DNA from: Patescibacteria group bacterium
GTDB taxonomy: Bacteria; Patescibacteriota; CPR2; UBA1875; CAIMLA01
Length of the DNA: 63,429 bases
Assembly (NCBI GenBank): GCA_028718325.1
Contig: JAQUMB010000001.1
Span: 1 to 63,429, forward strand
Direction: 5' to 3'
Made by a program: the position numbers and the translations under genes. Below are positions 2,459 through 63,332 of this stretch, piece after piece (positions within the stretch are counted from its first letter, which is position 1; the number at the start of each line of letters is the position of its first letter). Below the pieces are notes generated by a model. It was not told where the DNA came from. It saw only the letters and a program-made list of their open reading frames with translations, and did not search any database.

Positions 2459-3775
2459 TTATATCGTAACTTTTTCTATCTTTAAAATATTTCTAAGCCT
2501 ATTAGGGAGGTTACCATAGCCCCTCTCTAGCATTTCTATGCCCTTCAATGTCGTAGTACCTTTTGCTATAGCTGCTGCGATCAGATAGGCTAGTCCAGCC
2601 CGAAGATCGGGTATTTCTAAAACGCCTTGTGCATTAAGTAAAGTTGGACCTTTAATAATAGCGCTATGTTTAAAGCTTTGGCCTTCGAATCGACATTTAT
2701 TGCCCAAGCAATTTGTTGACAACGTTGTGTTGGCTCCCAGTTTATTAAGTGCTTCCAGATAGCCAAACCTTTGTTCATAGACAGTTTCATGGATCTTTGA
2801 AGTTCCTTCTGCTTGAGTCAAAAGGATTGCAAATGGTTGTTGCCAATCAGTTGAAAACCCAGGATAAACATCGGTCTCAATGTTGGTGGAACTCAATTTA
2901 CTTTTTCGATAAAATTTCATTTTTTCTTCATCGATCAATTCAAATCCTCCACCAATCTTTTGATAATATGAAAGGAAATTCCCTAAAGTTTCCGGGATGA
3001 TTCCTTCTACAATGATTTCACCATCAGAGGCACAGGCTAAACAAGCCCAGGAGGCACCTTCGATACGATCTCCCGATATCTTTGTCTTGGTGCCTTGTAA
3101 TTTTGATATCCCTTCTACCTTTATCGTTCTACCGGGAGAGGTAAAAATAATCGCCCCCATAGATCTGAGCATAGTAATCAAAGCAATAATTTCTGGCTCC
3201 AGGGCTGTATTCTCGATAACCGTAGTCCCTTTTGCTAAAACGCTTAAGAATAAACAAGTTTCGGTTGCCCCGACACTTGGATATGGCAAAGTGATATGTG
3301 TTGATTTGAGTCCTTTCTTTGCATATGCAGTATATCCAGACTCATCACACCTGATAACCCCTCCAAATTTTCTAATTGCTTCTATGTGAAAATCAACATT
3401 CCTTTTGCCTATATTACAACCGCCCAGAACTGGAACCTCAGCTTTTCCAAACCGGTGTAAAAGCGGGCTTAGTAACAATATAGGGATACGATTACTGCCA
3501 GAATCAGGACATGGAACTTTGGATGTTTTTATTTCGGAAGGATCTATTAATAGACTATTTTTCTTCTTGTCATATTCAACCTTTACTCCTATCGCCGTGA
3601 GCATTTCTAGTGTTAAGTCGATATCACCGATGTCGGGAACGTTAGTTAAGACACTCTTTTCTCGGGTCAACAAAGCAGCAACCATAGCTTTGGTTGCAAA
3701 ATTTTTGGCTCCTAGACAGCGAATTGTCCCTTTTATTGGCTTTCCGCCTGTAATTTTATATGCAGATTTCATCAC
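2459..3775 (-). CDS. murA: UDP-N-acetylglucosamine 1-carboxyvinyltransferase
   Basis: 438 aa. N-terminus YKITGGKPIKGTIRCLGAKNFATKAMVAALL and overall EPSP-synthase-fold pattern are typical of MurA. It is last in the argS-capA-murA co-oriented run. Confidence 0.93.
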   Translation of the reverse strand: MMKSAYKITGGKPIKGTIRCLGAKNFATKAMVAALLTREKSVLTNVPDIGDIDLTLEMLTAIGVKVEYDKKKNSLLIDPSEIKTSKVPCPDSGSNRIPILLLSPLLHRFGKAEVPVLGGCNIGKRNVDFHIEAIRKFGGVIRCDESGYTAYAKKGLKSTHITLPYPSVGATETCLFLSVLAKGTTVIENTALEPEIIALITMLRSMGAIIFTSPGRTIKVEGISKLQGTKTKISGDRIEGASWACLACASDGEIIVEGIIPETLGNFLSYYQKIGGGFELIDEEKMKFYRKSKLSSTNIETDVYPGFSTDWQQPFAILLTQAEGTSKIHETVYEQRFGYLEALNKLGANTTLSTNCLGNKCRFEGQSFKHSAIIKGPTLLNAQGVLEIPDLRAGLAYLIAAAIAKGTTTLKGIEMLERGYGNLPNRLRNILKIEKVTI

Positions 3776-3806
3776 TCGTCTATTATAGACTAAAATTTGT
3801 AATTTA

Positions 3807-5303
3807 TCAGTTTTGAAATTCTTTGCTAATCGAGGCTGTAAAAATTCTGTTTAGGATTTGATTTGATTGATCTTCTGTCGTTAATCCCGGTTGATTATAA
3901 TCCTCAATCTGATATGGGATAAGCCTGATGTCAACCAATTTTTTGCTATAAAAGTAAGCCTCAGCCACCACACCTTGCTTAGTTTCCATCGACCACTCTT
4001 GGTCAAAAATAAAATTCCCTAGTGAGTATAATATTGGTTTTCCTTGATAGCTTTCAGCTCCTTGAACAACATGCGGGTGAGTCCCTACTATCAAGTCAGC
4101 TCCTGATTCCATTGCGGCATGGGCAACGTTGACCTGCGATTGGATAGGATCGGCTTGATACTCGACTCCCCAATGAAATTCAGCTACCACAATATCGGCC
4201 TGCTTTTTTGTTTCTTTGATCATGGTTTTAATTCTTGCGATGTCTGTCTGGTCGTCGATTTCCGCCCACGGTTTGATCGCAAATTTAGCCACACCAGCCG
4301 AATCGTCAGTAGCGTTAATGGCTCCTATTATCGAATTAAAGTCGACAAAACCCCATTTCAGGCCGTTTCTTTCAATAAATAAAGACCTGTAAGCCTCCTC
4401 CGAGTTAATGCCTCCGCCGACATAACTGATTCCTTCTTTTTTTAATAACTCTAGGGTGTCATTAAAAACATTTACGCCATAGTTGGTGCTGTGGTTGTTT
4501 GCCAGAGCCACGATATCAACCCCAGCCATTTTTAGTCCAGCAATCGATTTTTGTGGAGCGATAAAACTCATACCTTCATCTGGAGGACTAACTCGATCTG
4601 AAAGCGGCGTCTCCAAATCAGCAAAAGTTATATCCCCTTTCTTAAGAAGATCAGCCATTTTCAGCCATGGATGGGTATAATCATTATACGTTCGCATTTT
4701 GTATGCCACATGCCGACCTAAAATAACGTCACCAACATTAGTCAAAAGCGTTATTTTATTCTGTATAAATGCATTGCTAGCTTTTGATTTATCGCTGGTT
4801 TTCAACTTTAGTTTCAATGTATAATCTGTGGCCGTTTTGTCCCACAATAGCTTATTATCGACTTTTAGAGTTTTTACTCGTGAATCAGCAGTTTGAAAAG
4901 GAACAATTGCTAAGCGATTACTCTTTTCGCCAACTAAGTTAACAATCTCTTGATCCCCCAAAAACTGTACTTTTGGCTGAAAGTTGTCCAAGTTAAATAA
5001 TTTTCTGACATTTTCCCTTTCATCAGCACTTACATAAACATCCTCATTTGATTCATTAGCTAACTTGTTTTTTAATTCAGCAAAAGATATGGTATCAATT
5101 TTGTCTGAAAAGTGATTAATAGGAACATAATATTGTTCATATTCATATACTTCTGTTTTATTATTTTTGCTTGCCTTACCGGCTTTTGGCCAAGGTTGAA
5201 TAAAAACTACCGACAATATAGCCCCAATTATCAATAAAACCGCGCAAAAAATAAGCGCGGTTTTATTATTCCTTAATAATCTTCGTCTGCTTCGTTTCAT
5301 CAC
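3807..5303 (-). CDS. CapA-family (PGA_cap) metallophosphatase-like protein with N-terminal signal anchor
   Basis: 498 aa. Motifs ADLETPLS, ALANNHSTNYG and GTHPHVVQG are characteristic of the CapA/YwtB family. The start overlaps the argS stop by 4 nt. Confidence 0.85.
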   Translation of the reverse strand: MMKRSRRRLLRNNKTALIFCAVLLIIGAILSVVFIQPWPKAGKASKNNKTEVYEYEQYYVPINHFSDKIDTISFAELKNKLANESNEDVYVSADERENVRKLFNLDNFQPKVQFLGDQEIVNLVGEKSNRLAIVPFQTADSRVKTLKVDNKLLWDKTATDYTLKLKLKTSDKSKASNAFIQNKITLLTNVGDVILGRHVAYKMRTYNDYTHPWLKMADLLKKGDITFADLETPLSDRVSPPDEGMSFIAPQKSIAGLKMAGVDIVALANNHSTNYGVNVFNDTLELLKKEGISYVGGGINSEEAYRSLFIERNGLKWGFVDFNSIIGAINATDDSAGVAKFAIKPWAEIDDQTDIARIKTMIKETKKQADIVVAEFHWGVEYQADPIQSQVNVAHAAMESGADLIVGTHPHVVQGAESYQGKPILYSLGNFIFDQEWSMETKQGVVAEAYFYSKKLVDIRLIPYQIEDYNQPGLTTEDQSNQILNRIFTASISKEFQN

Positions 5304-12218: not shown

Positions 12219-12338
12219 TATTGTCCTTTACTTGTATGCCTTCGCCATCAATCTGAGTTAGTTGGCGTTAATTAATCTAATTATTCTCTTTCTACTTTTT
12301 ACTTTTAGTTTTTTACTTTAATATATATTTGGAGGGTT

Positions 12339-16357: not shown

Positions 16358-16466
16358 GTCAGGACAAATCCTTAATTCAAATGTATAATAATTATATTAT
16401 GTTACTGCCCTCGTGGTGAAATTTCCGCCAAAGGCGGATCAGCCTCTGGCCGAGGTTAAAAAATAT

Positions 16467-32668: not shown

Positions 32669-32671
32669 TAT

Positions 32672-33217
32672 TGCTTAGTCAATCTATAAGCCGGGTTCTG
32701 TATCCTTACGGACGACAATCATCTATCTAAGCGGCAGGACCTTCCATTTTTGGCTCAGATCATCGCTTTTACGATTTATAGTCCTTGTTAAGCAATTAAC
32801 TTTTCAAAGTCATGTTTCGTAAAAATGATAGGCCCACCTGCCTTGCACCAAATAGGGTTTACCTCTTCTGGTTATCACTAACTAGAACTGTGAGCTCTTA
32901 CCTCACTCTTTTCACCCTTACCCCGCCCTTTCACAAAGTACAGTTTTCTCAAATTTCTATATATAATTCAACTCTGTTAGCTTTCAATACACTGTGCTCT
33001 CTGAAAGAGCGGGGCGGTATTGTTTCTGTGGCACTTTCCCTAGCCTTCCGACTGGTCGCTGTTAACGACTATCCTGATCTTAAGGTGCCCGGACTTTCCT
33101 CCCCGCCTTTTCAAAAAAACAAATCCTACAAAAAAACTACTATAAAACAATCATTTTGGATCAAGTATTCCTTATTGTTTCTCTGAAAGGGCGGGGCGAT
33201 TGCCCAATTAACTAAGC
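32672..33217 (-). ncRNA. rnpB: RNase P RNA, bacterial type A, unusually long (about 546 nt)
   Basis: The minus strand contains GAGGAAAGTCCGGGCAC, GGTAAGGGTGAAAAGAGTGAGGTAAGAGCTCAC, GGTAAACCCTATTTGGTGCAAGGCAG and ACAGAACCCGGCTTAT. P1 pairs GCTTAGTTAAT (5') with ATTGACTAAGC (3'). Confidence 0.9.
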
Positions 33218-57180: not shown

Positions 57181-57375
57181 TCATTTTATGGCAAGCCGCC
57201 AGATAATATTGATTATGATGACAACTAACAAGAAAGTTACTATCTCCCAAGTCGCCCTTTTGTTTACAGATACAAATGCGACTAATATGGCTAAGGCTAC
57301 GGCAACATATAGTAATTGGAGGATCCAAACGTAGATTGGCAGGCTTAAGAATGTATTATTTAAGAAATCTTTCAT
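57181..57375 (-). CDS. hypothetical small membrane protein (two TM)
   Basis: 64 aa, hydrophobic. Confidence 0.4.
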   Translation of the reverse strand: MKDFLNNTFLSLPIYVWILQLLYVAVALAILVAFVSVNKRATWEIVTFLLVVIIINIIWRLAIK

Positions 57376-57410
57376 ACTATAATTATACGCCCTATTTAAA
57401 GTACTTAGCA

Positions 57411-57536
57411 GGTTAGATGTTTTGCGCCTGTCCGGTCCGAAGCCTCGAGCGAAGGAGGGTCATTAATTTAATAAGCTGACATAAAATCAGCTTATTAAAT
57501 ATGTTCCCTTTGGAGAGTCGAGAAGCGCAAAGATCA
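57411..57536. repeat. intergenic mosaic repeat, copy A (long imperfect palindrome with central hairpin AATAAGCTGA...TCAGCTTATT)
   Basis: 55-nt block 57459-57513 matches 60321-60376 at roughly 85%. The left arm 57421-57466 matches 57900-57942. The ends TTTGCGC/GCGCAAA are inverted. Confidence 0.75.
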
Positions 57537-57538
57537 TT

Positions 57539-57571
57539 AAAAAAGAAGCATCTTGTTTGATGCTTCTTTTT
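57539..57571 (-). terminator. intrinsic terminator
   Basis: AAAAAGAAGCATC-AAACAA-GATGCTTCTTTTTT on the minus strand. Confidence 0.7.
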
Positions 57572-57577
57572 AAGACT

Positions 57578-57760
57578 TTAGAACACTTGAGCAATAATCC
57601 AAATTGCTCCGGCCAGAGCGAGGAAAAATAATCCTAGCCCGACAGGTGATCCCCAGCTGAACCAAGAACCCCACGCGCGCCAGTGCTTCATGTGAGGTTC
57701 GTCAGCTTCAAGCCAGGACTTGTAATCCGCAAGTTGTTCTTCTTGACTTTTTTTAGCCAT
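57578..57760 (-). CDS. hypothetical small membrane protein (Trp-rich, one TM)
   Basis: 60 aa. HWRAWGSWFSWGSPVGLGLFFLALAGAIWIIAQVF. Confidence 0.5.
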   Translation of the reverse strand: MAKKSQEEQLADYKSWLEADEPHMKHWRAWGSWFSWGSPVGLGLFFLALAGAIWIIAQVF

Positions 57761-57899
57761 AGTCGACTCCTTATTATTTAGTTAATAATGAGCCCCTATT
57801 TATGTTAAGCCAGTAGCGATTACATCTCAGAGGCAAAGATTGCCGTGAATCTGGGCTTATTAACACGATTATTATAGCACAAAAGCTCAGTAAATTAAA

Positions 57900-57995
57900 T
57901 TTGGCCTGCCCGTCCAAAACGAGGTGAAGAAGGATCATTATTACAATCTTAAGTCAACTTGCAGAGATCTCTAGAGAACCGTCCCAAGGGTTGCT
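57900..57995. repeat. intergenic mosaic repeat, copy C (degenerate)
   Basis: TTTGGCCTGCCCGTCCAAAACGAGGTGAAGAAGGATCATTATT aligns with the left arm of copy A. It contains the palindrome CTCTAGAGATCTCT-like core. Confidence 0.5.
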
Positions 57996-58050
57996 CCTTA
58001 AAAAACAATCAAAAAGCGGGGTTTACCCAGCTTAATGTTTTTCGCTTTAA

Positions 58051-59166
58051 TTATGACTCTTTCGGTACGGCTGCTGTTTCATCCTTTTTCTTAAACAACT
58101 TCCTTAAACCATGATATTTACGTTCCAGGTAAACCACCAAGACAATAAGCAGTATCAGCAAAAGTCCGATCCCGGTCAGAAAATATATGTTTGTCAAAAA
58201 ATTCCATTTGCTTTCTTTGACTTGGGTCGCCGCAACTGTTGCCTTTGGATTGAACTTTACCCGTAACGATAATGTTTTTTCAGAAACGGAGCCTCCGGCA
58301 TTTTTGGCCGCTAGTTTTACGTCATAATCTTGATTCAACTTAAGACTTGGATGATCAGCTAAGACCAGATTATAGTTATCCAGCTGTTTATCCGGGATAT
58401 CTATAATTTCTGTTTCTACCGCTTTTTGGGCTTCGTAAATATACATTACATAACCGGCCAAATCGGCTTCTTTGTTTTTATCCCAAGAAAAGACAATTTG
58501 TTCGTCTTGATTCCTATCCACCTTAAAGTTAGTTGGTACCGCCAAAACACTGGGCGCAACAACAGGAGCAGTGGCAATGGTAGTAGCTTTTGTGGCAGTT
58601 TTCGTAGTTGTTGGGGCCGTCGGAGTAGTTCCAGATGTAGTCGTCGCAACATCTTTGCCATACTGCTTAAACAGTCTGTCTGCTCCAACAGGGGCTTGCT
58701 CATCACCGGTCAGCGCTACACCTCTCGAATATGTAACTCCGTCTGTACCTGTCATCCAATAGGTCTGGTTATCGATATTACTTGATAAATAGAAAGCATA
58801 TGTTGTTTCGGGGGTAACCACTAGGCTATTTTCAAAAACAAAAGGCTCCCAGGCAGCATCACCGGCGAAGGTAAGGACATGCGTTTCTGAGCCAATCACC
58901 TGTTTTGAAGCAAAGTTTTTGACTGTCATTGTAACACTGGTACCAGTTTGCCTATGCTTGAAATAAACATCAATCGATGTAACTCTATTGTATGTAGGCG
59001 TAAAGGTTTGACCAGTACCACCTATTCCAATTGATCCATAGCCCGTGTTTGATTCAACGGCATAGGACTGATCAAGGACAGAACCATCCCCAGCGATGAC
59101 ACTACCTAGCGGTAGTAAAAAAACGCAGAAGGATGCGCTAATTATAAATAACTTTAATTTTTTCAT
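58051..59166 (-). CDS. surface protein: signal peptide, beta-rich N-domain, Thr-rich linker, fibronectin-type-III-like domain, C-terminal TM anchor
   Basis: Signal peptide MKKLKLFIISASFCVFLLPLGSVIA, linker TTTSGTTPTAPTTTKTATKATTIATAP, and an FN3-like PTNFKVDRNQDEQIVFSWDKNKEADLAGYVMYIYE. The C-terminal TM is followed by a basic tail. Confidence 0.72.
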   Translation of the reverse strand: MKKLKLFIISASFCVFLLPLGSVIAGDGSVLDQSYAVESNTGYGSIGIGGTGQTFTPTYNRVTSIDVYFKHRQTGTSVTMTVKNFASKQVIGSETHVLTFAGDAAWEPFVFENSLVVTPETTYAFYLSSNIDNQTYWMTGTDGVTYSRGVALTGDEQAPVGADRLFKQYGKDVATTTSGTTPTAPTTTKTATKATTIATAPVVAPSVLAVPTNFKVDRNQDEQIVFSWDKNKEADLAGYVMYIYEAQKAVETEIIDIPDKQLDNYNLVLADHPSLKLNQDYDVKLAAKNAGGSVSEKTLSLRVKFNPKATVAATQVKESKWNFLTNIYFLTGIGLLLILLIVLVVYLERKYHGLRKLFKKKDETAAVPKES

Positions 59167-59250
59167 TTCCCTCCCTAACTCAGTTTTTTGAGTATTTTTA
59201 TTTTAGTTTAAGTTTACTCCCTTTTAGCTTAAAAACAATCATTATTATCA

Positions 59251-59280
59251 AAATTAGCAAACCGTTCGGCTTGCTAATTT
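59251..59280 (-). terminator. hairpin / probable terminator distal to repeat copy D
   Basis: AAATTAGCAA-...-TTGCTAATTT, with a T-run on the minus strand. Confidence 0.45.
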
Positions 59281-59284
59281 CTTA

Positions 59285-59420
59285 GTGAGTGTCTGCCGGC
59301 GTACCAATTAATCTTCGATTTGGAAACTTGGTTCCAACATACGTACTTTGGCGAAGCGAGAGGCGCAGGAGCCATCTAACCGAAAATGAGACACTATAAA
59401 AACTATCTATGTCTCATTTT
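59285..59420. repeat. intergenic mosaic repeat, copy D (includes 11-bp-stem hairpin 59383-59420)
   Basis: 59321-59377 aligns with 63276-63332 at roughly 70%. The exact 24-mer GAAAATGAGACACTATAAAAACTA at 59382-59405 recurs at 60407-60430. CATCTAACC is the reverse of GGTTAGATG in copy A. Confidence 0.72.
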
Positions 59421-59424
59421 AGAT

Positions 59425-60210
59425 CTAAACTGGCCTAAGAGTACCGGCAAATACTTGCCAGGCAAGAAGTGACTTTGCTACCAAAGAAAGAATAATGTAC
59501 ATTCTCTCGCCATAGAGATAGTTTCTCCAGGGACCGACTTTTTTGTACTGAAGGAATTGGTTTAGGGCAAAGATGTCAAAGAAAATAAAGATTGAAAAGA
59601 AGATCCAATAAACAAAAGTTGGTGGCTTAGCATCACCGCTACCGGCGCCAAGAAGATAGATCGCAACTGCAATCCAAGGAACAATACCGGCAAAAGTTCC
59701 AAAAATATAGGCAGTCCAATTGGTTTTCTTTGTCGTTTGATTATGCAACTCCATCATCCAGCCAAAGAAAATCATACAGGCGTTTAGGGCAAAAATCAGC
59801 ATTAGACTTATGCCATCATAGATTCCAACAAGCATGGCGATTACAACCATCATAATAGACGAACTAAAGGCATATTCCACCCATCTCATATAATTGGCAC
59901 CTTTTTTAAGATTAGCAACATACCAAGGATAAACACTTGGCAGCGAAAGAATAAAATGGGCGGCAGCTGAAAGAAACAAGAAAAGAGCAATTAGAGGAGC
60001 AATTTGCAAAGTGAATCTTTCCTGCACAACGGGCAAAAGCTTTTGTGCTTGAACGTTAAATTGCAGAAATGATGTTGTTACCGGTAAGGCAAAAGCTGTA
60101 GCTAAAACTAATAAAACAACACCCTGAATAAGGTGCAGAAATCCCATAAAAATATTGAATTTTCTAAGTCCCGAAAATGTTTTCTCGGTTACTTGTTTCT
60201 CGACAGGCAT
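59425..60210 (-). CDS. heliorhodopsin
   Basis: 261 aa, 7 TM. FLHLIQ, AAHFILS, RWVEYAFSSS, FGW, GIVPW and GERMYIILSLVAKSLLAWQVFAGTL (Schiff-base Lys in SLVAKS) match my recollection of heliorhodopsin 48C12 along the whole length. Confidence 0.9.
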   Translation of the reverse strand: MPVEKQVTEKTFSGLRKFNIFMGFLHLIQGVVLLVLATAFALPVTTSFLQFNVQAQKLLPVVQERFTLQIAPLIALFLFLSAAAHFILSLPSVYPWYVANLKKGANYMRWVEYAFSSSIMMVVIAMLVGIYDGISLMLIFALNACMIFFGWMMELHNQTTKKTNWTAYIFGTFAGIVPWIAVAIYLLGAGSGDAKPPTFVYWIFFSIFIFFDIFALNQFLQYKKVGPWRNYLYGERMYIILSLVAKSLLAWQVFAGTLRPV

Positions 60211-60239
60211 TTATCCTCCTATATTTTTGTTATAGCTCA

Positions 60240-60268
60240 ATATTAAACTTCAAAGAGATTAATGACAA
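60240..60268 (-). promoter_or_regulatory. candidate promoter of the heliorhodopsin gene
   Basis: Minus-strand TTGTCA, 17 nt, TAATAT. RBS TAGGAGGA precedes the ATG at 60210. Confidence 0.4.
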
Positions 60269-60289
60269 GCAAAAGAGACTGAGCTTCTT

Positions 60290-60430
60290 TAAAAAGTGCT
60301 TAGCAAAAAGCTAAGAGTGCGTCATTAATATAATAAGCCGACAAAAGTCAGCTTATTAGGTATGCGTTCCATTTGGTGAACTACTCCTTGCCGGAACTAC
60401 TTGGAAGAAAATGAGACACTATAAAAACTA
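60290..60430. repeat. intergenic mosaic repeat, copy B
   Basis: It shares the 55-nt hairpin block with copy A and the exact 24-mer with copy D. The 24-mer here overlaps the stop codon of the ligase gene. Confidence 0.72.
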
Positions 60431-61873
60431 GCCTACATTAACCATACTCATTAATTTCGCTAAAGATGGTTTTCCAGTTAAGGTTTTTGGTATATTACTT
60501 ATTAAGAAAACGGTGTCTGGTCTCCAAGAAGCTGGCAAGTTTTTTTTATAGTACTCCTGAATTTCTCTATTAGACATGTCTGAAACAATAAAAAATAATA
60601 TTTTATCATTTAAGCTTTCCTTGTTTTGTAACCCAGTTACATAGATTTCCTTGATCTTGCTGTTTTGCAACATTGCCCATTCAACATCTCGTGGGTTAAC
60701 CAAATAACCATTTTTCATAATTTTTTCTTGAATTCTACTTTTTAGTTTTAGTTTGTTATTTTCCTTCAAAAAAATGTCCCCGGAACGCCACCATCCATCC
60801 GAAGCAAAGTTGGCTTTAGTCGCCTTTTCGTTTTTATAATATCCCGGGAAGAGTCCGGGGCTTTTGGTTGACAGTTCTTCATTATTCTCTATCCTTATTT
60901 TTACTCCTTTTGGTAGACAGCCAAAGACGCCAGGAGATCTTTCTGATAATGTATTTAGTGCGATAGTCCCTGTTTCAGATGTCCCATAACGATCAAAAAT
61001 TTCCGCTCCGAAACGATCCTTAAATTCTTGCCATAATAAAGGGGATAGATGAGATGAACCAGATTCAAATAGTCGAACTTTATTCAGGTCATAATATTTT
61101 TCAGGGTTATGGTCCATTAATTTTTTGTAAATAGCTGGGACACCGAGAAACATTGAAATTTTTCCCGAGTCTAATAGCTCTAGTGCGCTATCTGGATTAA
61201 AGAAATTTTGTAAAAAAACTGTATTACCATGGAAAAGACTACCCAAAAGCCCAATTACTAACCCATGACGGTGTGACAGAGGCAACGGTATAAATATCGT
61301 ATCATTCCCGGTCCATCCCATAGGTTTGGCGATCGACTCTATATCCCAAAGCTGGTTATAGTGAGTATTCGGGATGACCTTTGGATTTCCGGTTGTTCCA
61401 GATGCATAGAATAAAGTAGAAATCTGTTGTTCGGGTGGCAAGAATTCATTTTTATAAGAGACTGGCCTAAACTTTTTTCTGTATAAATCATCAACTATAA
61501 TTGACTTGATAGAACTTGAAAAATAATTCCGATGTTTATGGTCGGTTATTATAAGGCTTGGCTTCGTTGTGTTAATTATGTTGTCGATCTCTAGCTTTTT
61601 AAAACTAACGTCTATAGGCATCGCCATGTGACCGCTAGAGATAATACCGTAATAAATTACGACAAATTGCCAAGAGTTTGGTAATATGATGGCAATTACG
61701 TGTTGTTTGCCAGTATCACCAAAGTGCTTACGGAGAAAACTTTCTATATTATTTGAATCAGCATAAAGCTCAGACCAATTTAGTGTCTTGTCTTGACAAA
61801 TAAGAGCTTTTTTCAAGCCTATTTTTTTTGCATTATTTTTTAAATAATCAGTTAGATATTTCCCCTTATTCAT
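60428..61873 (-). CDS. AMP-dependent synthetase/ligase (acyl-CoA-synthetase / adenylate-forming superfamily)
   Basis: LFYASGTTGNPKV (AMP-binding P-loop), YGTSETG, and GWWRSGD. I prefer the start at MNKGKY (61873), which overlaps the upstream stop as ATGAATAA. The ORF-track start is 61900. Confidence 0.85.
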   Translation of the reverse strand: MNKGKYLTDYLKNNAKKIGLKKALICQDKTLNWSELYADSNNIESFLRKHFGDTGKQHVIAIILPNSWQFVVIYYGIISSGHMAMPIDVSFKKLEIDNIINTTKPSLIITDHKHRNYFSSSIKSIIVDDLYRKKFRPVSYKNEFLPPEQQISTLFYASGTTGNPKVIPNTHYNQLWDIESIAKPMGWTGNDTIFIPLPLSHRHGLVIGLLGSLFHGNTVFLQNFFNPDSALELLDSGKISMFLGVPAIYKKLMDHNPEKYYDLNKVRLFESGSSHLSPLLWQEFKDRFGAEIFDRYGTSETGTIALNTLSERSPGVFGCLPKGVKIRIENNEELSTKSPGLFPGYYKNEKATKANFASDGWWRSGDIFLKENNKLKLKSRIQEKIMKNGYLVNPRDVEWAMLQNSKIKEIYVTGLQNKESLNDKILFFIVSDMSNREIQEYYKKNLPASWRPDTVFLISNIPKTLTGKPSLAKLMSMVNVG

Positions 61874-63068
61874 TACTAAGCCCCGCTTCTTTTTTGTCAT
61901 GAACAGTTGTATATTCTCTTATTTTTGAAGTCATGTTCTTCGCTACATCTATCACATGTTTTCTATACCGTGCGGCCAAATATATAAATGCGAGAACTGC
62001 CGTATCCAAAATAAAGTTATAGAAAACATTTGATGGAAGAGAAACCATCCAGATATGCAAAGGATAAAGAATGACAGCGGAGAGACCGTAAACAAAAAGC
62101 GGACTCTTTCCTAAAGTTTCAAAAATGCCAAAAGTCCTATTGGCAATCTGCGTCTCATACTTTCTCACCACAAGATATAGGGCTATAAAACAAATAAAAT
62201 CTAGGCTCAATCGCCCTATACCTAAAATATTTTTTTCAAAATAAGTTCCCGTTGAGCTATAAAAATTATTTAACAAGATAATCGTTGAGCTTACGAAATT
62301 AGGCAAAAAGATAACATAACTATAAGAATTTTTTACTAAATTTGAGAGATAAATTAATATCCCATTGAAAATAATAGCACCAACGGCAATCCCGACTACT
62401 AAATAACTAATCTTTTTTTGTAGTGGCTTTGTCATTACCTTAAACTTTTTTTCAGTTACGGGTAGATAATAACCAGCGACTATTCCAAAGAAAAATAGTA
62501 TTTGCCAACCCATATTAAAGCTGGTTCCACGGAATGCCCATATGGCCGCACTTGCTATTAGAATCAACCACCACTTTCGTTTTGCAATAAAATAGAGTGC
62601 AAGAGGAGCGAAAAATATAAAAACGACAAAGTGAACCCAGTAATCAGCCCACCCATAAACATATTGTAAGGTTAATGTTTGATAAATAAGATTGGAGAGA
62701 TTGGTTTGTAATATGTCGAGCTTAGTCCCAGGAGGTAACCCAGCACTTATCCCCCAAAAAGTAAAAAGTAAGGTGAAAAATACCGACCATAGGTACAGCT
62801 TCCCTGATCGTAACCAAATCTTTTTAGTAGTTTTTTTGGCGTTTTTTGTAAATTTTGGACCATAGACATAACCAATCAAAAGTCCAGAAATTAGGAAAAA
62901 ACCTTCAGCCGCTGAAACCCAAAATAACCCACGGCCCGTAATAATATCATAGATAGACGGAAAGCGTTCTATGTGATTAACAATAATTACAAACATAAAA
63001 TACCCTCGGAGTAAATCAAGTCCCAGGATTCTTGGGTTATTAGTTTTTTGTATTAAATCTGTTTGCAC
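61866..63068 (-). CDS. integral-membrane acyltransferase (acyltransferase-3 / OpgC-like family)
   Basis: 400 aa, about 10 TM. N-terminal ILGLDLLRGYFMFVIIVNHIERF matches the family pattern (conserved His). Confidence 0.72.
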   Translation of the reverse strand: MQTDLIQKTNNPRILGLDLLRGYFMFVIIVNHIERFPSIYDIITGRGLFWVSAAEGFFLISGLLIGYVYGPKFTKNAKKTTKKIWLRSGKLYLWSVFFTLLFTFWGISAGLPPGTKLDILQTNLSNLIYQTLTLQYVYGWADYWVHFVVFIFFAPLALYFIAKRKWWLILIASAAIWAFRGTSFNMGWQILFFFGIVAGYYLPVTEKKFKVMTKPLQKKISYLVVGIAVGAIIFNGILIYLSNLVKNSYSYVIFLPNFVSSTIILLNNFYSSTGTYFEKNILGIGRLSLDFICFIALYLVVRKYETQIANRTFGIFETLGKSPLFVYGLSAVILYPLHIWMVSLPSNVFYNFILDTAVLAFIYLAARYRKHVIDVAKNMTSKIREYTTVHDKKEAGLSNE

Positions 63069-63232
63069 TAATCTTCCATTATTTTGATGCTTAGCAACAT
63101 TTTCTATTTGATTTTTGCTTTTGTCCTTTTTACATTCTATTATTAACCTGAAAAATTGCTGAAAGCTTAAGAAAAAGTTGTATCAATATTTTCAAAATTC
63201 TTTTGTTAATTCTATTCCGGTAAGGGTTCAAT

Positions 63233-63271
63233 AAAAAAAAACACGAAATTCATTGAAAATCGTGTTTTTTT
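63233..63271 (-). terminator. intrinsic terminator distal to repeat copy E
   Basis: A-run, stem ACACGA/TCGTGT, T-run. It is symmetrical. Confidence 0.6.
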
Positions 63272-63275
63272 ATAC

Positions 63276-63332
63276 TTGGAACTTTGGTTCCATGAAGCAC
63301 ATATTGGCGAGCCGAGATACGCTGGAGCCTAT
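63276..63332. repeat. intergenic mosaic repeat, copy E
   Basis: TTGGAACTTTGGTTCCATGAAGCACATATTGGCGAGCCGAGATACGCTGGAGCCTAT aligns with copy D. Confidence 0.6.

What the first reader, a model, noticed from the sequence alone, without database searches (positions are those of the whole stretch)
57411..63332. Mosaic hairpin-repeat family filling every spacer of the co-oriented gene run around the heliorhodopsin gene
Seen: five intergenic spacers in a row (57376-57577, 57761-58050, 59167-59424, 60211-60427, 63069-63328) each carry a 60-140-nt element, immediately downstream of a minus-strand gene. The elements share blocks in a mosaic way:
- A/B: GTCATTAAT-TAATAAGCYGACA..TCAGCTTATTA..TATG.GTTCC.TTTGG, about 85% over 55 nt (57459-57513 versus 60321-60376).
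- D/E: TTGGAAACTTGGTTCC...TTGGCGARSCGAGA..CGC.GGAGCC, about 70% (59321-59377 versus 63276-63332).
- A/C: TTTGSSCCTG.CCGKYC....CGAG.GAAGRAGGRTCATTA (57421-57466 versus 57900-57942).
- B/D: the exact 24-mer GAAAATGAGACACTATAAAAACTA (59382-59405 and 60407-60430). In B it contains the stop codon of the ligase gene.
- A/D: the 9-mer GGTTAGATG in opposite orientations.

Copy A is a long imperfect palindrome (TTTGCGC...GCGCAAA).

A weak sixth relative may lie at 12250-12295 (CTTCGCCATCAAT...TTGGCGTTAATTAATC).

I found nothing comparable in the other ~57 kb.

Inference: this could be a MITE/REP-like element family, a conserved 3'-UTR stabiliser or terminator module, or a footprint of cassette-like gene shuffling in this locus. 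I cannot name a known family.
Basis: seen in the sequence. Interest (0 to 1): 0.62.

Follow-up and report, generated by a model that had tools for sequence, protein, structure and literature searches.

The report
Island integration scars around heliorhodopsin gene
The repeated spacer elements are leftover attachment sites and end-pieces of mobile gene islands that inserted one after another behind a tRNA-Asp gene of a Saccharibacteria-like (CPR) bacterium, which means the heliorhodopsin gene and its neighbours arrived as mobile cargo.

Summary
The repeat family is real. A/B, D/E and the exact 24-mer all beat 2000 shuffles, and A/C is weaker (3/2000). The "sixth copy" at 12250-12295 is not supported.

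It is not a REP/MITE family, an integron attC array or a structured RNA. Every block traces to one source.
- **L-module.** A 25-nt piece ending in GCCA, present in A, D and E and degenerate in B, copies the 3' end of tRNA-Asp.
- **Flanks.** The sequence after it copies the flank that follows tRNA-Asp or tRNA-Glu wherever a large-serine-recombinase island sits in related genomes. That flank holds terminator hairpins and, in A and B, an extended -10 promoter. In most copies elsewhere (and in A) an ATG lies 6 nt after the -10, which suggests leaderless expression.
- **24-mer and 9-mer.** These are the first codons of a small antisense ORF that ends such islands.

A sister strain carries the intact tRNA-Asp 12.6 kb upstream of E. 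A recombinase/CBASS/restriction island lies between them, and the two strains diverge inside E.

Heliorhodopsins about 90% identical lie in unrelated neighbourhoods. One of those is another module-punctuated array.

Best reading: junction scars from tandem insertion at a tRNA gene. This is a known kind of system, apparently not described for this lineage.

The parts
63302..63329 (-). E: L-module (pseudo 3' end of tRNA-Asp, GGCTCCAGCGTATCTCGGCTCGCCA+ATA). It starts at the stop codon of the SDR gene. Sister strains diverge inside it.
   Evidence: PWM score 35.2 against a background of 13 or less. L001/L002/L139 match the window only up to 63329/63317. Aligned with real tRNA-Asp 3' ends.
63232..63301 (-). 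E: island-type flank. Small hairpin GGAACCAAAGTTCC (63276-63292) followed by a bidirectional terminator (63232-63274).
   Evidence: 81-82% identical over 103-116 nt to the sequence that follows the intact tRNA-Asp of sister strain L139, 0/2000 shuffles. Hairpins.
60428..63068 (-). Cargo unit: OpgC-like acyltransferase (61866-63068) and adenylate-forming ligase (60428-61900).
   Evidence: Pfam. The same gene pair, at 58-62% identity, lies in other contexts without heliorhodopsin.
60407..60430 (-). B: exact 24-mer. It is a remnant of the first codons (..ENETL*) of the small antisense ORF that ends islands of this family, and it overlaps the ligase stop codon.
60290..60406 (-). B: H-type junction module. 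Degenerate L-module (..TTCACCAAATGGAAC), 12-bp terminator hairpin (60330-60359), ATTAATGA, and CGCA..TGCTAAGCAC promoter block upstream of the heliorhodopsin gene.
   Evidence: nhmmer E 1.6e-27 against a profile of 18 copies. Alignment A2.
59425..60210 (-). Cargo: heliorhodopsin gene.
   Evidence: Pfam PF18761, E 2e-100. Homologues about 90% identical lie in unrelated neighbourhoods.
59382..59421 (-). D: heliorhodopsin terminator hairpin. Its 3' arm is the second copy of the 24-mer (59382-59405).
59346..59381 (-). D: the 9-mer GGTTAGATG (gene sense) followed by the L-module GGCTCCTGCGCCTCTCGCTTCGCCA+AAG.
   Evidence: PWM score 39.9, the best in the window..
59245..59345 (-). D: second type of tRNA-Asp flank. 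Hairpin GGAACCAAGTTTCC (59320-59337), spacer, and terminator TTAGCAAGCC..GGTTTGCTAA (59250-59281), upstream of the fn3 gene.
   Evidence: 88% identical over 110 nt to the sequence directly after tRNA-Asp in metagenome locus L132, 0/2000 shuffles.
57868..57943 (-). C: truncated module. ATTAATGA-like piece plus the ~38-nt "R" insert (57900-57934) plus a TGcTATAAT promoter. No L-module and no hairpin.
   Evidence: A/C local alignment 79%, 3/2000 shuffles. The same insert occurs in L129, L135 and L137b.
57376..57539 (-). A: full H-type module with R insert. L-module (57508-57535), hairpin (57467-57499), ATTAATGA (57460-57467), R insert (57420-57459), CATCTAACC-TGCTAAGTAC block, -10 TATAAT (57382-57387), then ATG of the 64-aa gene 6 nt later.
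   Evidence: nhmmer E 2.4e-24. PWM 15.2. Fold z = -4.8. Alignment A2.
57540..57572 (-). Terminator hairpin of the 60-aa gene, immediately upstream (gene sense) of module A.
   Evidence: Inverted 13-mers. Sequence.

Best explanation
The spacer repeats are hybrid junction scars, attR-like. They were left by integrative islands and their decayed or miniature derivatives that inserted one after another at the 3' end of a tRNA-Asp gene.

**Layout of an element's attachment region**
- **Distal arm (P):** a small antisense ORF of about 78 aa whose first codons read ..NETNET.., then the left half of a 25-nt pseudo tRNA-Asp 3' end.
- **Proximal arm (P'):** the right half of that pseudo end (acceptor strand plus GCCA), then one or two hairpins that terminate the tRNA or the upstream gene. 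In the H-type version a regulatory block follows (CGCA-N10-TTyTGCTAAGnAC, extended -10), which usually places the cargo gene's ATG 6 nt after the -10. That spacing suggests leaderless mRNA.

**How the array forms**
Each new insertion behind the tRNA pushes the older units outward. The result is a co-oriented run of cargo genes. Each spacer joins the P arm of a newer unit to the P' arm of an older one.

**Order in this strain family**
tRNA-Asp, then a variable island (large serine recombinase, CBASS and restriction genes, or in the window's strain a restriction system, module F and the SDR gene), then E, OpgC-ligase, B, heliorhodopsin, D, fn3, C, a 60-aa gene, A and a 64-aa gene.

**Shown**
- Homology of the blocks to tRNA-Asp ends, to island flanks and to island regulatory regions.
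- The strain breakpoint inside E.
- The recombinase islands sitting at tRNA-Asp or tRNA-Glu.
- The different contexts of heliorhodopsin.

**Inferred**
- That the large serine recombinase does the insertion.
- That the promoters and terminators work as read.
- That later reshuffling between the near-identical modules by homologous recombination contributes to the mosaic.
For: 1. **Family beyond the window.** There are 24 aligned H-type copies from the window, sister strains, two species-representative genomes (L032 is titled a Saccharibacteria genome; L110's organism was not recorded) and metagenomes. Unrelated genes lie on both sides of them.
2. **tRNA origin.**
   - In L139 an intact tRNA-Asp(GTC) lies 12.6 kb upstream of E. 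Its 3' end and flank are 81-82% identical to E over 103-116 nt.
   - D is 88% identical over 110 nt to the flank of tRNA-Asp in L132.
   - A PWM built from L-modules scores real tRNA-Asp genes outside the training set at 28.1 and 23.6, against a window background of 13 or less. No other tRNA of the window reaches 12.
   - In L032 and L131 the H-type module abuts a tRNA-Glu copy.
   - In L148 modules follow a decayed tRNA-Asp copy.
3. **Island and integrase.**
   - Between tRNA-Asp and E, L139 carries a large serine recombinase, CBASS, HpaII restriction-modification, Vsr, a ParB-methylase and a LexA-like repressor.
   - Three of three sampled recombinase homologues (70-84% identical) lie within 2.3 kb of a tRNA-Asp, a tRNA-Glu or a pseudo L-module. 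Each is followed by the same flank.
4. **Polymorphism.** The window/L003/L004 type and the L001/L002/L139 type diverge inside E's L-module.
5. **24-mer explained.**
   - The motif TCTC[AG]TTT is about ten-fold enriched in the 60 nt upstream of L-modules, 11 observed against 1.0 expected.
   - It encodes the start of an antisense ORF conserved between L127 and L139, 35% identity, E 5e-12.
6. **Promoter block.** The H-type promoter block is homologous to the divergent region between recombinase and cargo in four islands.
7. **Hairpin.** It is the only conserved structure, and 5 of its 9 pairs show compensatory changes.
8. **Mobile cargo.** Heliorhodopsins 89-91% identical sit in unrelated neighbourhoods. 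L142 is another array with at least six modules.
9. **Precedent.** The same logic (partial tRNAs scattered through islands, newer elements pushing older ones inward, some elements with large serine recombinases) is described for Prochlorococcus (10.1101/2020.12.28.424599).
Against: - No tRNA-Asp and no recombinase lie inside the window itself. The anchor is seen only in sister strains.
- The repeats flanking the L139 island are 81% alike, not identical, so no fresh insertion event is documented.
- No empty site, excised circle or alternative joint was found in four metagenomes. Only assembled contigs were available there.
- Breakpoints between related loci cannot be placed at one fixed position. 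Some lie left of TCGCCA and one lies right of CGCAAAA. Homologous recombination explains them as well as a site-specific enzyme does.
- B's L-module is too degenerate to score, and C has none.
- One-gene units of 0.6-1 kb are small for decayed islands.
- Promoter, leaderless start and terminator functions are read from sequence only. No RNA data exist.
Confidence: 0.72

Rival explanations
1. Portable homology cassettes. The modules are conserved intergenic linkers, and cassettes are swapped purely by RecA-type homologous or homology-facilitated illegitimate recombination after DNA uptake. No dedicated site-specific recombinase acts on them today. The tRNA-like piece is only a historical relic.
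For: - L135, L138 and L137 show an X-H-P, X-H-Q, Y-H-P pattern around an identical ~60-nt core.
- Breakpoints are not at a single position.
- The heliorhodopsin unit is bounded by a 24-nt identity on one side and long homology on the other.
- No recombinase gene lies in the one-gene arrays sampled.
Against: - It does not explain why the flank follows tRNA-Asp or tRNA-Glu exactly where a serine-recombinase island sits.
- It does not explain why the distal arm with its antisense ORF is conserved.
- It is compatible with the main explanation as a secondary process.
Confidence: 0.15
2. Integron-like array. The elements are attC-type recombination sites of gene cassettes captured by an integron integrase encoded elsewhere.
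For: - Co-oriented units of 0.6-1.5 kb are separated by 60-140-nt imperfect palindromes of high mutual identity. This resembles chromosomal integron repeats.
- The cargo is diverse accessory genes.
Against: - No tyrosine recombinase is recorded within 10 kb in the arrays sampled.
- The array is anchored at a tRNA gene, not at attI.
- The hairpin is a perfect 12-bp stem without extrahelical bases or paired RYYYAAC/GTTRRRY cores.
- Most units carry their own promoter.
- The blocks are explained by tRNA and island homology.
Confidence: 0.03
3. REP/MITE-like non-autonomous transposable repeats that inserted independently into each spacer.
For: - A short, hairpin-containing, intergenic repeat family with many copies in related genomes.
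- Copy A is a long palindrome.
- A ~38-nt insert (R) is present or absent at a precise point.
Against: - No terminal inverted repeats or target-site duplications.
- The orientation is always that of the downstream gene.
- The right edge runs to the start codon at fixed spacing, and the left edge merges with tRNA genes.
- No copy lies elsewhere in 57 kb of the window.
- There is no match in viral contigs.
Confidence: 0.04
4. A structured cis-regulatory or small RNA (3'-UTR stabiliser, riboswitch or processing signal) shared by the genes of the run.
For: - A and E fold much better than shuffles, z about -4.7.
- The hairpin keeps pairing through compensatory changes.
Against: - No Rfam match even at E up to 10.
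- RNAalifold finds only the 9-bp hairpin in 24 copies.
- In L142 the hairpin sequence can be replaced wholesale.
- The remaining conservation is sequence-level. It is accounted for by a tRNA end, codons of an antisense ORF and a promoter block.
Confidence: 0.03

Closest known systems
tRNA-anchored flexible genomic islands built by tandem insertion of integrative elements (for example the Prochlorococcus islands remodelled by tycheposons; 10.1101/2020.12.28.424599)
   Same: - The island is next to a tRNA gene.
- Partial tRNA copies are scattered through the island as junctions.
- Newer elements push older ones outward.
- Degenerate integrase-less remnants carry niche or defence cargo.
- A minority of those elements use large serine recombinases.
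- The host genome is streamlined.
   Different: - The lineage is different (Saccharimonadales-like CPR bacteria), and so are the target tRNAs (Asp, Glu).
- None of the tycheposon hallmark replication or integration genes was looked for or seen.
- The junctions here carry a conserved terminator plus an apparently leaderless promoter.
- Many units are single genes.
Large-serine-recombinase integrative elements (phage-type integrases; SCCmec-type Ccr islands)
   Same: - A Resolvase + Recombinase + Zn-ribbon protein of about 420 aa is encoded near one end of a 10-13 kb island carrying defence cargo.
- The sites flanking the island are similar but not identical.
   Different: - Target choice at the 3' end of a tRNA gene, with an element-borne replacement of the tRNA end and its terminator, is unusual for this class.
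- No att site or crossover dinucleotide has been defined here.
Chromosomal integron cassette arrays (attC / VCR repeats)
   Same: - Co-oriented short cassettes are separated by conserved palindrome-containing sites of about 60-140 nt.
- The cargo is diverse accessory genes.
   Different: - No IntI and no attI.
- No attC core pairs or extrahelical bases.
- Units have their own promoters.
- The sites derive from a tRNA end.
REP / BIME and MITE repeats
   Same: Short intergenic hairpin repeats at gene ends, sometimes in inverted pairs as in copy A.
   Different: - Fixed orientation and no TIR or TSD.
- Clustered in one island instead of dispersed.
- Composite of tRNA end, terminator and promoter.

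Membership tests
tRNA-targeting integrative genomic island with tandem accretion | An intact tRNA gene at the proximal end of the array | tested here: met
   tRNA-Asp(GTC) at L139:16384-16460, 12.6 kb upstream of E in a sister strain 99.9% identical across the shared region. The window itself ends before this point.
tRNA-targeting integrative genomic island with tandem accretion | Direct repeats of the tRNA 3' end (partial tRNAs) at the distal end and at internal junctions | tested here: met
   - L-modules of E, D and A score 35.2, 39.9 and 15.2 on a PWM. Independent tRNA-Asp genes score 28.1 and 23.6 on the same PWM.
- The flanks are 81-88% identical to real tRNA-Asp flanks.
tRNA-targeting integrative genomic island with tandem accretion | A site-specific recombinase gene inside the island | tested here: met
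   - Large serine recombinase at L139:12727-14031 (Pfam Resolvase, Recombinase, Zn_ribbon_recom).
- Homologues lie next to tRNA-Asp or tRNA-Glu in L150 and L151 and next to a pseudo L-module in L152.
- None is present in the older units of the window.
tRNA-targeting integrative genomic island with tandem accretion | Presence/absence polymorphism with the breakpoint in the repeat | tested here: met
   The window/L003/L004 type and the L001/L002/L139 type diverge inside E's L-module.
tRNA-targeting integrative genomic island with tandem accretion | Excision products (empty site or circular junction) | tested here: inconclusive
   No such joints were seen in four metagenomes. Only assembled contigs were available, not reads.
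Tycheposons (as a gene family-defined group) | Shared hallmark integration and replication genes of the Prochlorococcus elements | not tested
   No comparison with tycheposon proteins was made. The resemblance is in architecture only.
Integron | intI tyrosine recombinase and attI next to the first cassette | tested here: not met
   No Phage_integrase-type hit is recorded within 10 kb in L001, L003, L139 or L142. The first unit abuts a tRNA gene.
Integron | attC architecture (paired R''/R' and L''/L' boxes, extrahelical bases) | tested here: not met
   Only a perfect 9-12-bp hairpin is conserved, and the flanks are not complementary. The IntegronFinder covariance model itself could not be run.
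REP/MITE | Terminal inverted repeats and target-site duplication; dispersed copies in both orientations | tested here: not met
   The edges merge into tRNA genes and start codons. Orientation is fixed. There are no copies in the other 57 kb.
Curated RNA families (Rfam 15) | Match to a covariance model or conserved multi-helix structure | tested here: not met
   No relevant hit at E up to 10. Only one hairpin appears in the consensus fold.

The most novel reading that the evidence does not exclude
The H-type modules may define a working cassette system in Saccharimonadales-like CPR bacteria. In this reading, integrase-less mini-elements consist of one gene plus a ~130-nt site with three parts: a pseudo tRNA-Asp end, a terminator and a leaderless promoter. 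A large serine recombinase supplied in trans excises them as circles and re-inserts them behind tRNA-Asp or tRNA-Glu. This would be a functional analogue of integrons with self-expressing cassettes, and heliorhodopsin would be one of its cargos.
Probability: 0.2. Interest if true: 0.75.

Novelty: new member of a known kind. Interest (0 to 1): 0.45.

Why it matters
- **A route for gene flux in CPR bacteria.** CPR/Saccharibacteria have tiny genomes, and little is known about how they gain and lose genes. This locus suggests one route: islands with a large serine recombinase insert behind tRNA-Asp or tRNA-Glu, pile up, and leave a ladder of recognisable junctions.
- **Self-contained insertions.** Each junction brings a terminator for the tRNA and a promoter for the cargo, so an inserted gene can be expressed without depending on its surroundings.
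- **Status of the neighbouring genes.** The heliorhodopsin gene, the OpgC-ligase pair and defence systems (CBASS, restriction-modification) are accessory, exchangeable cargo in this lineage. They should not be read as a functional operon. This matters for attempts to infer heliorhodopsin function from gene neighbourhood.
- **A search handle.** The ~75-nt conserved core gives a simple way to map flexible islands in related metagenome-assembled genomes.

Tried and rejected
- **First collection scan.** The bare hairpin pattern was too generic and hit terminators in all phyla. Only L032 and L110 were true relatives.
- **Viral contigs.** There was no H-type module, and the two L-module pattern hits were chance matches in coding sequence.
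- **Rfam.** Nothing relevant at the gathering threshold or at E up to 10. No group I intron next to the tRNA-Asp of L139.
- **tRNA-like minihelix idea.** The L-module lacks a 5' partner strand and a canonical T-loop when inspected by eye, so I reject an RNA-level tRNA mimic.
- **"R insert is an inverted L-module".** Not supported by the PWM (below 12) or by the shuffle test (140/2000).
- **Empty site for the heliorhodopsin unit.** The nearest non-identical ligase homologues are only 58-62% identical and lie in other contexts, so this test was uninformative.
- **Upstream walk in the window-type strain.** The only contig carrying it ends at the restriction gene.
- **Sequencing runs.** Only DNA metagenomes kept as contigs hold the locus, so there is no test of 5' or 3' RNA ends and no read-level joints.
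- **Simple promoter and terminator scan.** It added nothing, because the hairpins have few G-C pairs and the promoters are of the extended -10 type.
- **The small antisense ORF.** No Pfam or PHROG family matches it.
- **Base composition.** It does not single out the units.

Full report
**1. What is in the window**

Nearly all genes between 53.5 kb and the window end are on the minus strand. They include:
- a 64-aa gene (57181-57375);
- a 60-aa gene (57578-57760);
- an fn3 protein (58051-59166);
- heliorhodopsin (59425-60210; PF18761, E 2e-100);
- an adenylate-forming ligase (60428-61900);
- an OpgC-type acyltransferase (61866-63068);
- the 3' end of a short-chain dehydrogenase (SDR) whose stop codon is at 63329-63331.

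**2. Check of the observation**

| Pair or claim | Result |
|---|---|
| A/B | 85% over 68 nt, 0/2000 dinucleotide shuffles; blastn E about 1e-10 |
| D/E | 72% over 54 ungapped nt, 0/2000 |
| 24-mer | exact at 59382-59405 and 60407-60430, covering the ligase stop codon |
| A/C | 79% over 82 gapped columns, 3/2000; missed by blastn |
| A/D 9-mer | occurs only at those two places, but the surrounding match is not significant (140/2000) |
| 12250-12295 | indistinguishable from shuffles |

A profile of the family finds nothing else in the window.

**3. The family outside the window**

- Near-identical strains (L001-L004, L139) carry the same run.
- The window-type strains L003 and L004 have a sixth copy, F, upstream of the SDR gene.
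- A specific pattern scan of metagenomes, plus two true hits among the species genomes, gave further copies. A relative holding a 89% identical heliorhodopsin (L142) has at least six more.
- Twenty-four copies align (A2) to this consensus: GGTTCnAGCGCTnCnnGGnTCGCCAAATGGAACATACT-TAATAAGCTGAC(loop)GTCAGCTTATT-tATATTAATGA-CGCAAAATnnnTAATCTGCTAAGCAC-TTTTTnTGnTAAnAT-N6-ATG.
- The genes on either side are unrelated from copy to copy. They include GNAT acetyltransferases, serine and alpha/beta hydrolases, an EEP nuclease, a ferredoxin-type membrane protein, a deoxyribosyltransferase-like protein, the SDR and heliorhodopsin.
- RNAalifold finds only the hairpin. Five of its 9 pairs show compensatory changes. 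In L142 the hairpin sequence is replaced wholesale while its position is kept.
- Rfam has no match.
- In 14 of about 22 copies the ATG lies exactly 6 nt after an extended -10. That spacing suggests leaderless transcripts. This is read from sequence only.

**4. The key: the blocks are tRNA ends and island arms**

- *The tRNA anchor in L139.* The sister-strain contig L139 has an intact tRNA-Asp(GTC) (16384-16460) 12.6 kb upstream of E. Its last 25 nt and the next ~90 nt are repeated at E with 81-82% identity. That stretch holds a GGAAC..GTTCC hairpin, AAGTATAAAAAA and a terminator.
- *What lies between.* The interval carries an AAA_13 ATPase, a large serine recombinase, Vsr, HpaII restriction-modification, an HTH protein, TM2, a ParB-methylase, CBASS (SMODS + SAVED), a LexA-like repressor and small ORFs.
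- *The strain breakpoint.* The window's strain type has other genes there (a restriction system, a 290-aa protein, F and the SDR). The two types diverge inside E's 25-nt block.
- *Block D.* D is 88% identical over 110 nt to the sequence directly after tRNA-Asp in metagenome locus L132.
- *PWM test.* A PWM made from 17 L-modules scores D at 39.9, E at 35.2 and A at 15.2, with the window background at 13 or less. Real tRNA-Asp genes that were not used to build it score 28.1 and 23.6. No other tRNA of the window reaches 12.
- *Other tRNA contexts.* In L032 and L131 an H-type module starts at the CCA of a tRNA-Glu copy. In L148 modules follow a decayed tRNA-Asp copy behind tRNA-Gln.

**5. The flank belongs to the element, not to the tRNA**

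Three of three sampled homologues of the recombinase (70-84% identical) lie in islands with the same backbone (LexA-like repressor, ParB-methylase, HTH, variable restriction systems).
- L150 is next to a tRNA-Asp.
- L151 is next to a tRNA-Glu.
- L152 is next to a pseudo L-module.

Each of these is followed by the same flank type. The H-type promoter block (CGCA-N10-TTyTGCTAAGnAC-TTTTT) is homologous to the divergent region between the recombinase gene and its cargo in four islands (A3). The recombinase's true start is probably the MKYSYCLYARKS methionine, 13 codons inside the called ORF.

**6. The 24-mer and the 9-mer**

- The motif TCTC[AG]TTT is about ten-fold enriched in the 60 nt upstream of L-modules, 11 observed against 1.0 expected.
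- It is the antisense coding sequence ..NETNET.. at the start of a ~78-aa ORF. That ORF begins in the left half of the L-module and reads into the element. It is conserved between L127 and L139 (35% identity, E 5e-12) and has no family match.
- B and D keep only its first codons (NYLEENETL* and SHLTENETL*).
- The exact 24-mer is this remnant. In D, the 9-mer is its HLT codons; A's inverted copy of the 9-mer lies beside the R insert and was not traced to this ORF.
- In both B and D the 24-mer is followed by exactly 33 nt up to the CCA.

**7. Model**

These facts fit classical Campbell-type insertion with tandem accretion. An element's attachment region has this layout:
- left (P arm): the small antisense ORF, then the left half of the L-module;
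- right (P' arm): the right half of the L-module (tRNA acceptor strand + GCCA), then terminator hairpin(s), then the regulatory block, then the cargo.

Insertion at the tRNA replaces the tRNA's 3' end and terminator with element copies. The next insertion leaves a junction made of its own P arm and the older element's P' arm. E, B, D and A are such junctions, and C is a truncated one. The hairpins are terminators. The mosaic sharing reflects two flank types plus remnants of the two arms:
- the small-hairpin type in D and E;
- the large-hairpin H type in A, B and F.

The Prochlorococcus island paper describes the same logic: partial tRNAs, newer elements pushing older ones inward, and some large serine recombinases. 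I found no description of this for Saccharibacteria or Patescibacteria in the searchable literature.

**8. What remains open**

- The crossover point is not defined. Comparisons of the same cargo in different contexts place breakpoints anywhere within the ~75-nt conserved core. One case lies to the right of CGCAAAA. Homologous recombination between modules is therefore an equally good account of the later shuffling.
- No empty site, circle or fresh identical repeat was found.
- It is unknown whether the 0.6-1 kb one-gene units are deletion remnants or are mobilised in trans.
- The ~38-nt R insert is unexplained. It sits exactly at ATTAATGA|CGCAAAA in A, C, L129, L135 and L137b. It is also what makes copy A a long palindrome, which is not a feature of the family.
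- Function of promoters and terminators is inferred from sequence, because no RNA runs hold the locus.

**9. Consequence for the heliorhodopsin gene**

- Heliorhodopsins 89-91% identical lie between radical-SAM genes in a module-punctuated array (L142), and next to an M23 peptidase and an MmeI-type enzyme (L143).
- The ligase's nearest non-identical relatives are only 58-62% identical and have no heliorhodopsin beside them.
- The gene is exchangeable cargo, so its neighbours here say little about its function.

**10. Verdict**

This is a real repeat family, correctly sensed as a trace of cassette-like shuffling. It is best explained as tRNA-Asp-derived integration scars and arm remnants of an island family with a large serine recombinase. 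The kind of system is known. The lineage, the target, and the built-in terminator and promoter are new details. Interest is moderate.

Noticed in passing
L139:16470-16790 (minus strand), just upstream of tRNA-Asp: An 82-aa GIY-YIG ORF is preceded by a partial 5' copy of tRNA-Asp (GGCCCGGTAGTT + 38-nt insert + GGTTAGAACGCCA). It looks like a homing-endonuclease-type insertion with a partial duplication of the tRNA. Rfam finds no group I intron there.
   Followed up: partly
L127:4479-4718 (-) and L139 plus strand about 3745-3970; remnants at window 59373-59405 and 60399-60430: A conserved ~78-aa ORF (N-terminus ..NETNET.., C-terminus ..NF(F/Y)D(L/I)LLR..) is encoded antisense at the distal end of the islands and starts inside the pseudo-tRNA block. 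It has no Pfam or PHROG match. The L139 copy lacks an obvious start codon.
   Followed up: partly
window 57420-57459 and 57900-57934; L129, L135, L137b: A ~38-nt insert (CCyGCC..GGrCAGG) is present or absent at exactly ATTAATGA|CGCAAAA in otherwise near-identical modules (L135 against L137a). It may be a tiny mobile insertion or an added hairpin.
   Followed up: partly
L032:2650-3523 and L131: A whole tRNA-Glu(CTC) gene with its promoter is duplicated around a one-gene GNAT cassette. The upstream copy has a mismatched T-stem and three G-U pairs in the acceptor stem.
   Followed up: partly
L139:12727-14031: The large serine recombinase is probably called 13 codons too long, from a GTG start. 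Homologues are 420-421 aa, and the conserved start is MKYSYCLYARKS. This recombinase family has thousands of homologues at 50% identity or more across Patescibacteria.
   Followed up: partly
L139:4400-12650 (sister strain of the window): The variable island carries a type of CBASS (SMODS + SAVED), HpaII restriction-modification with Vsr, a ParB-N6 methylase and a LexA-like S24 repressor. Related islands swap in type I or other restriction systems at the same backbone position.
   Followed up: no
alignment A2 (24 modules); window 57373-57387: Most modules place the ATG exactly 6 nt after a TGnTAAnAT extended -10, which implies leaderless mRNAs. A minority (F, L110, L128) instead have a leader with a GGAGG ribosome-binding site.
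   Followed up: partly
window 32671-33211: The RNase P RNA match spans 541 nt against a 367-position model, so it carries large insertions.
   Followed up: no
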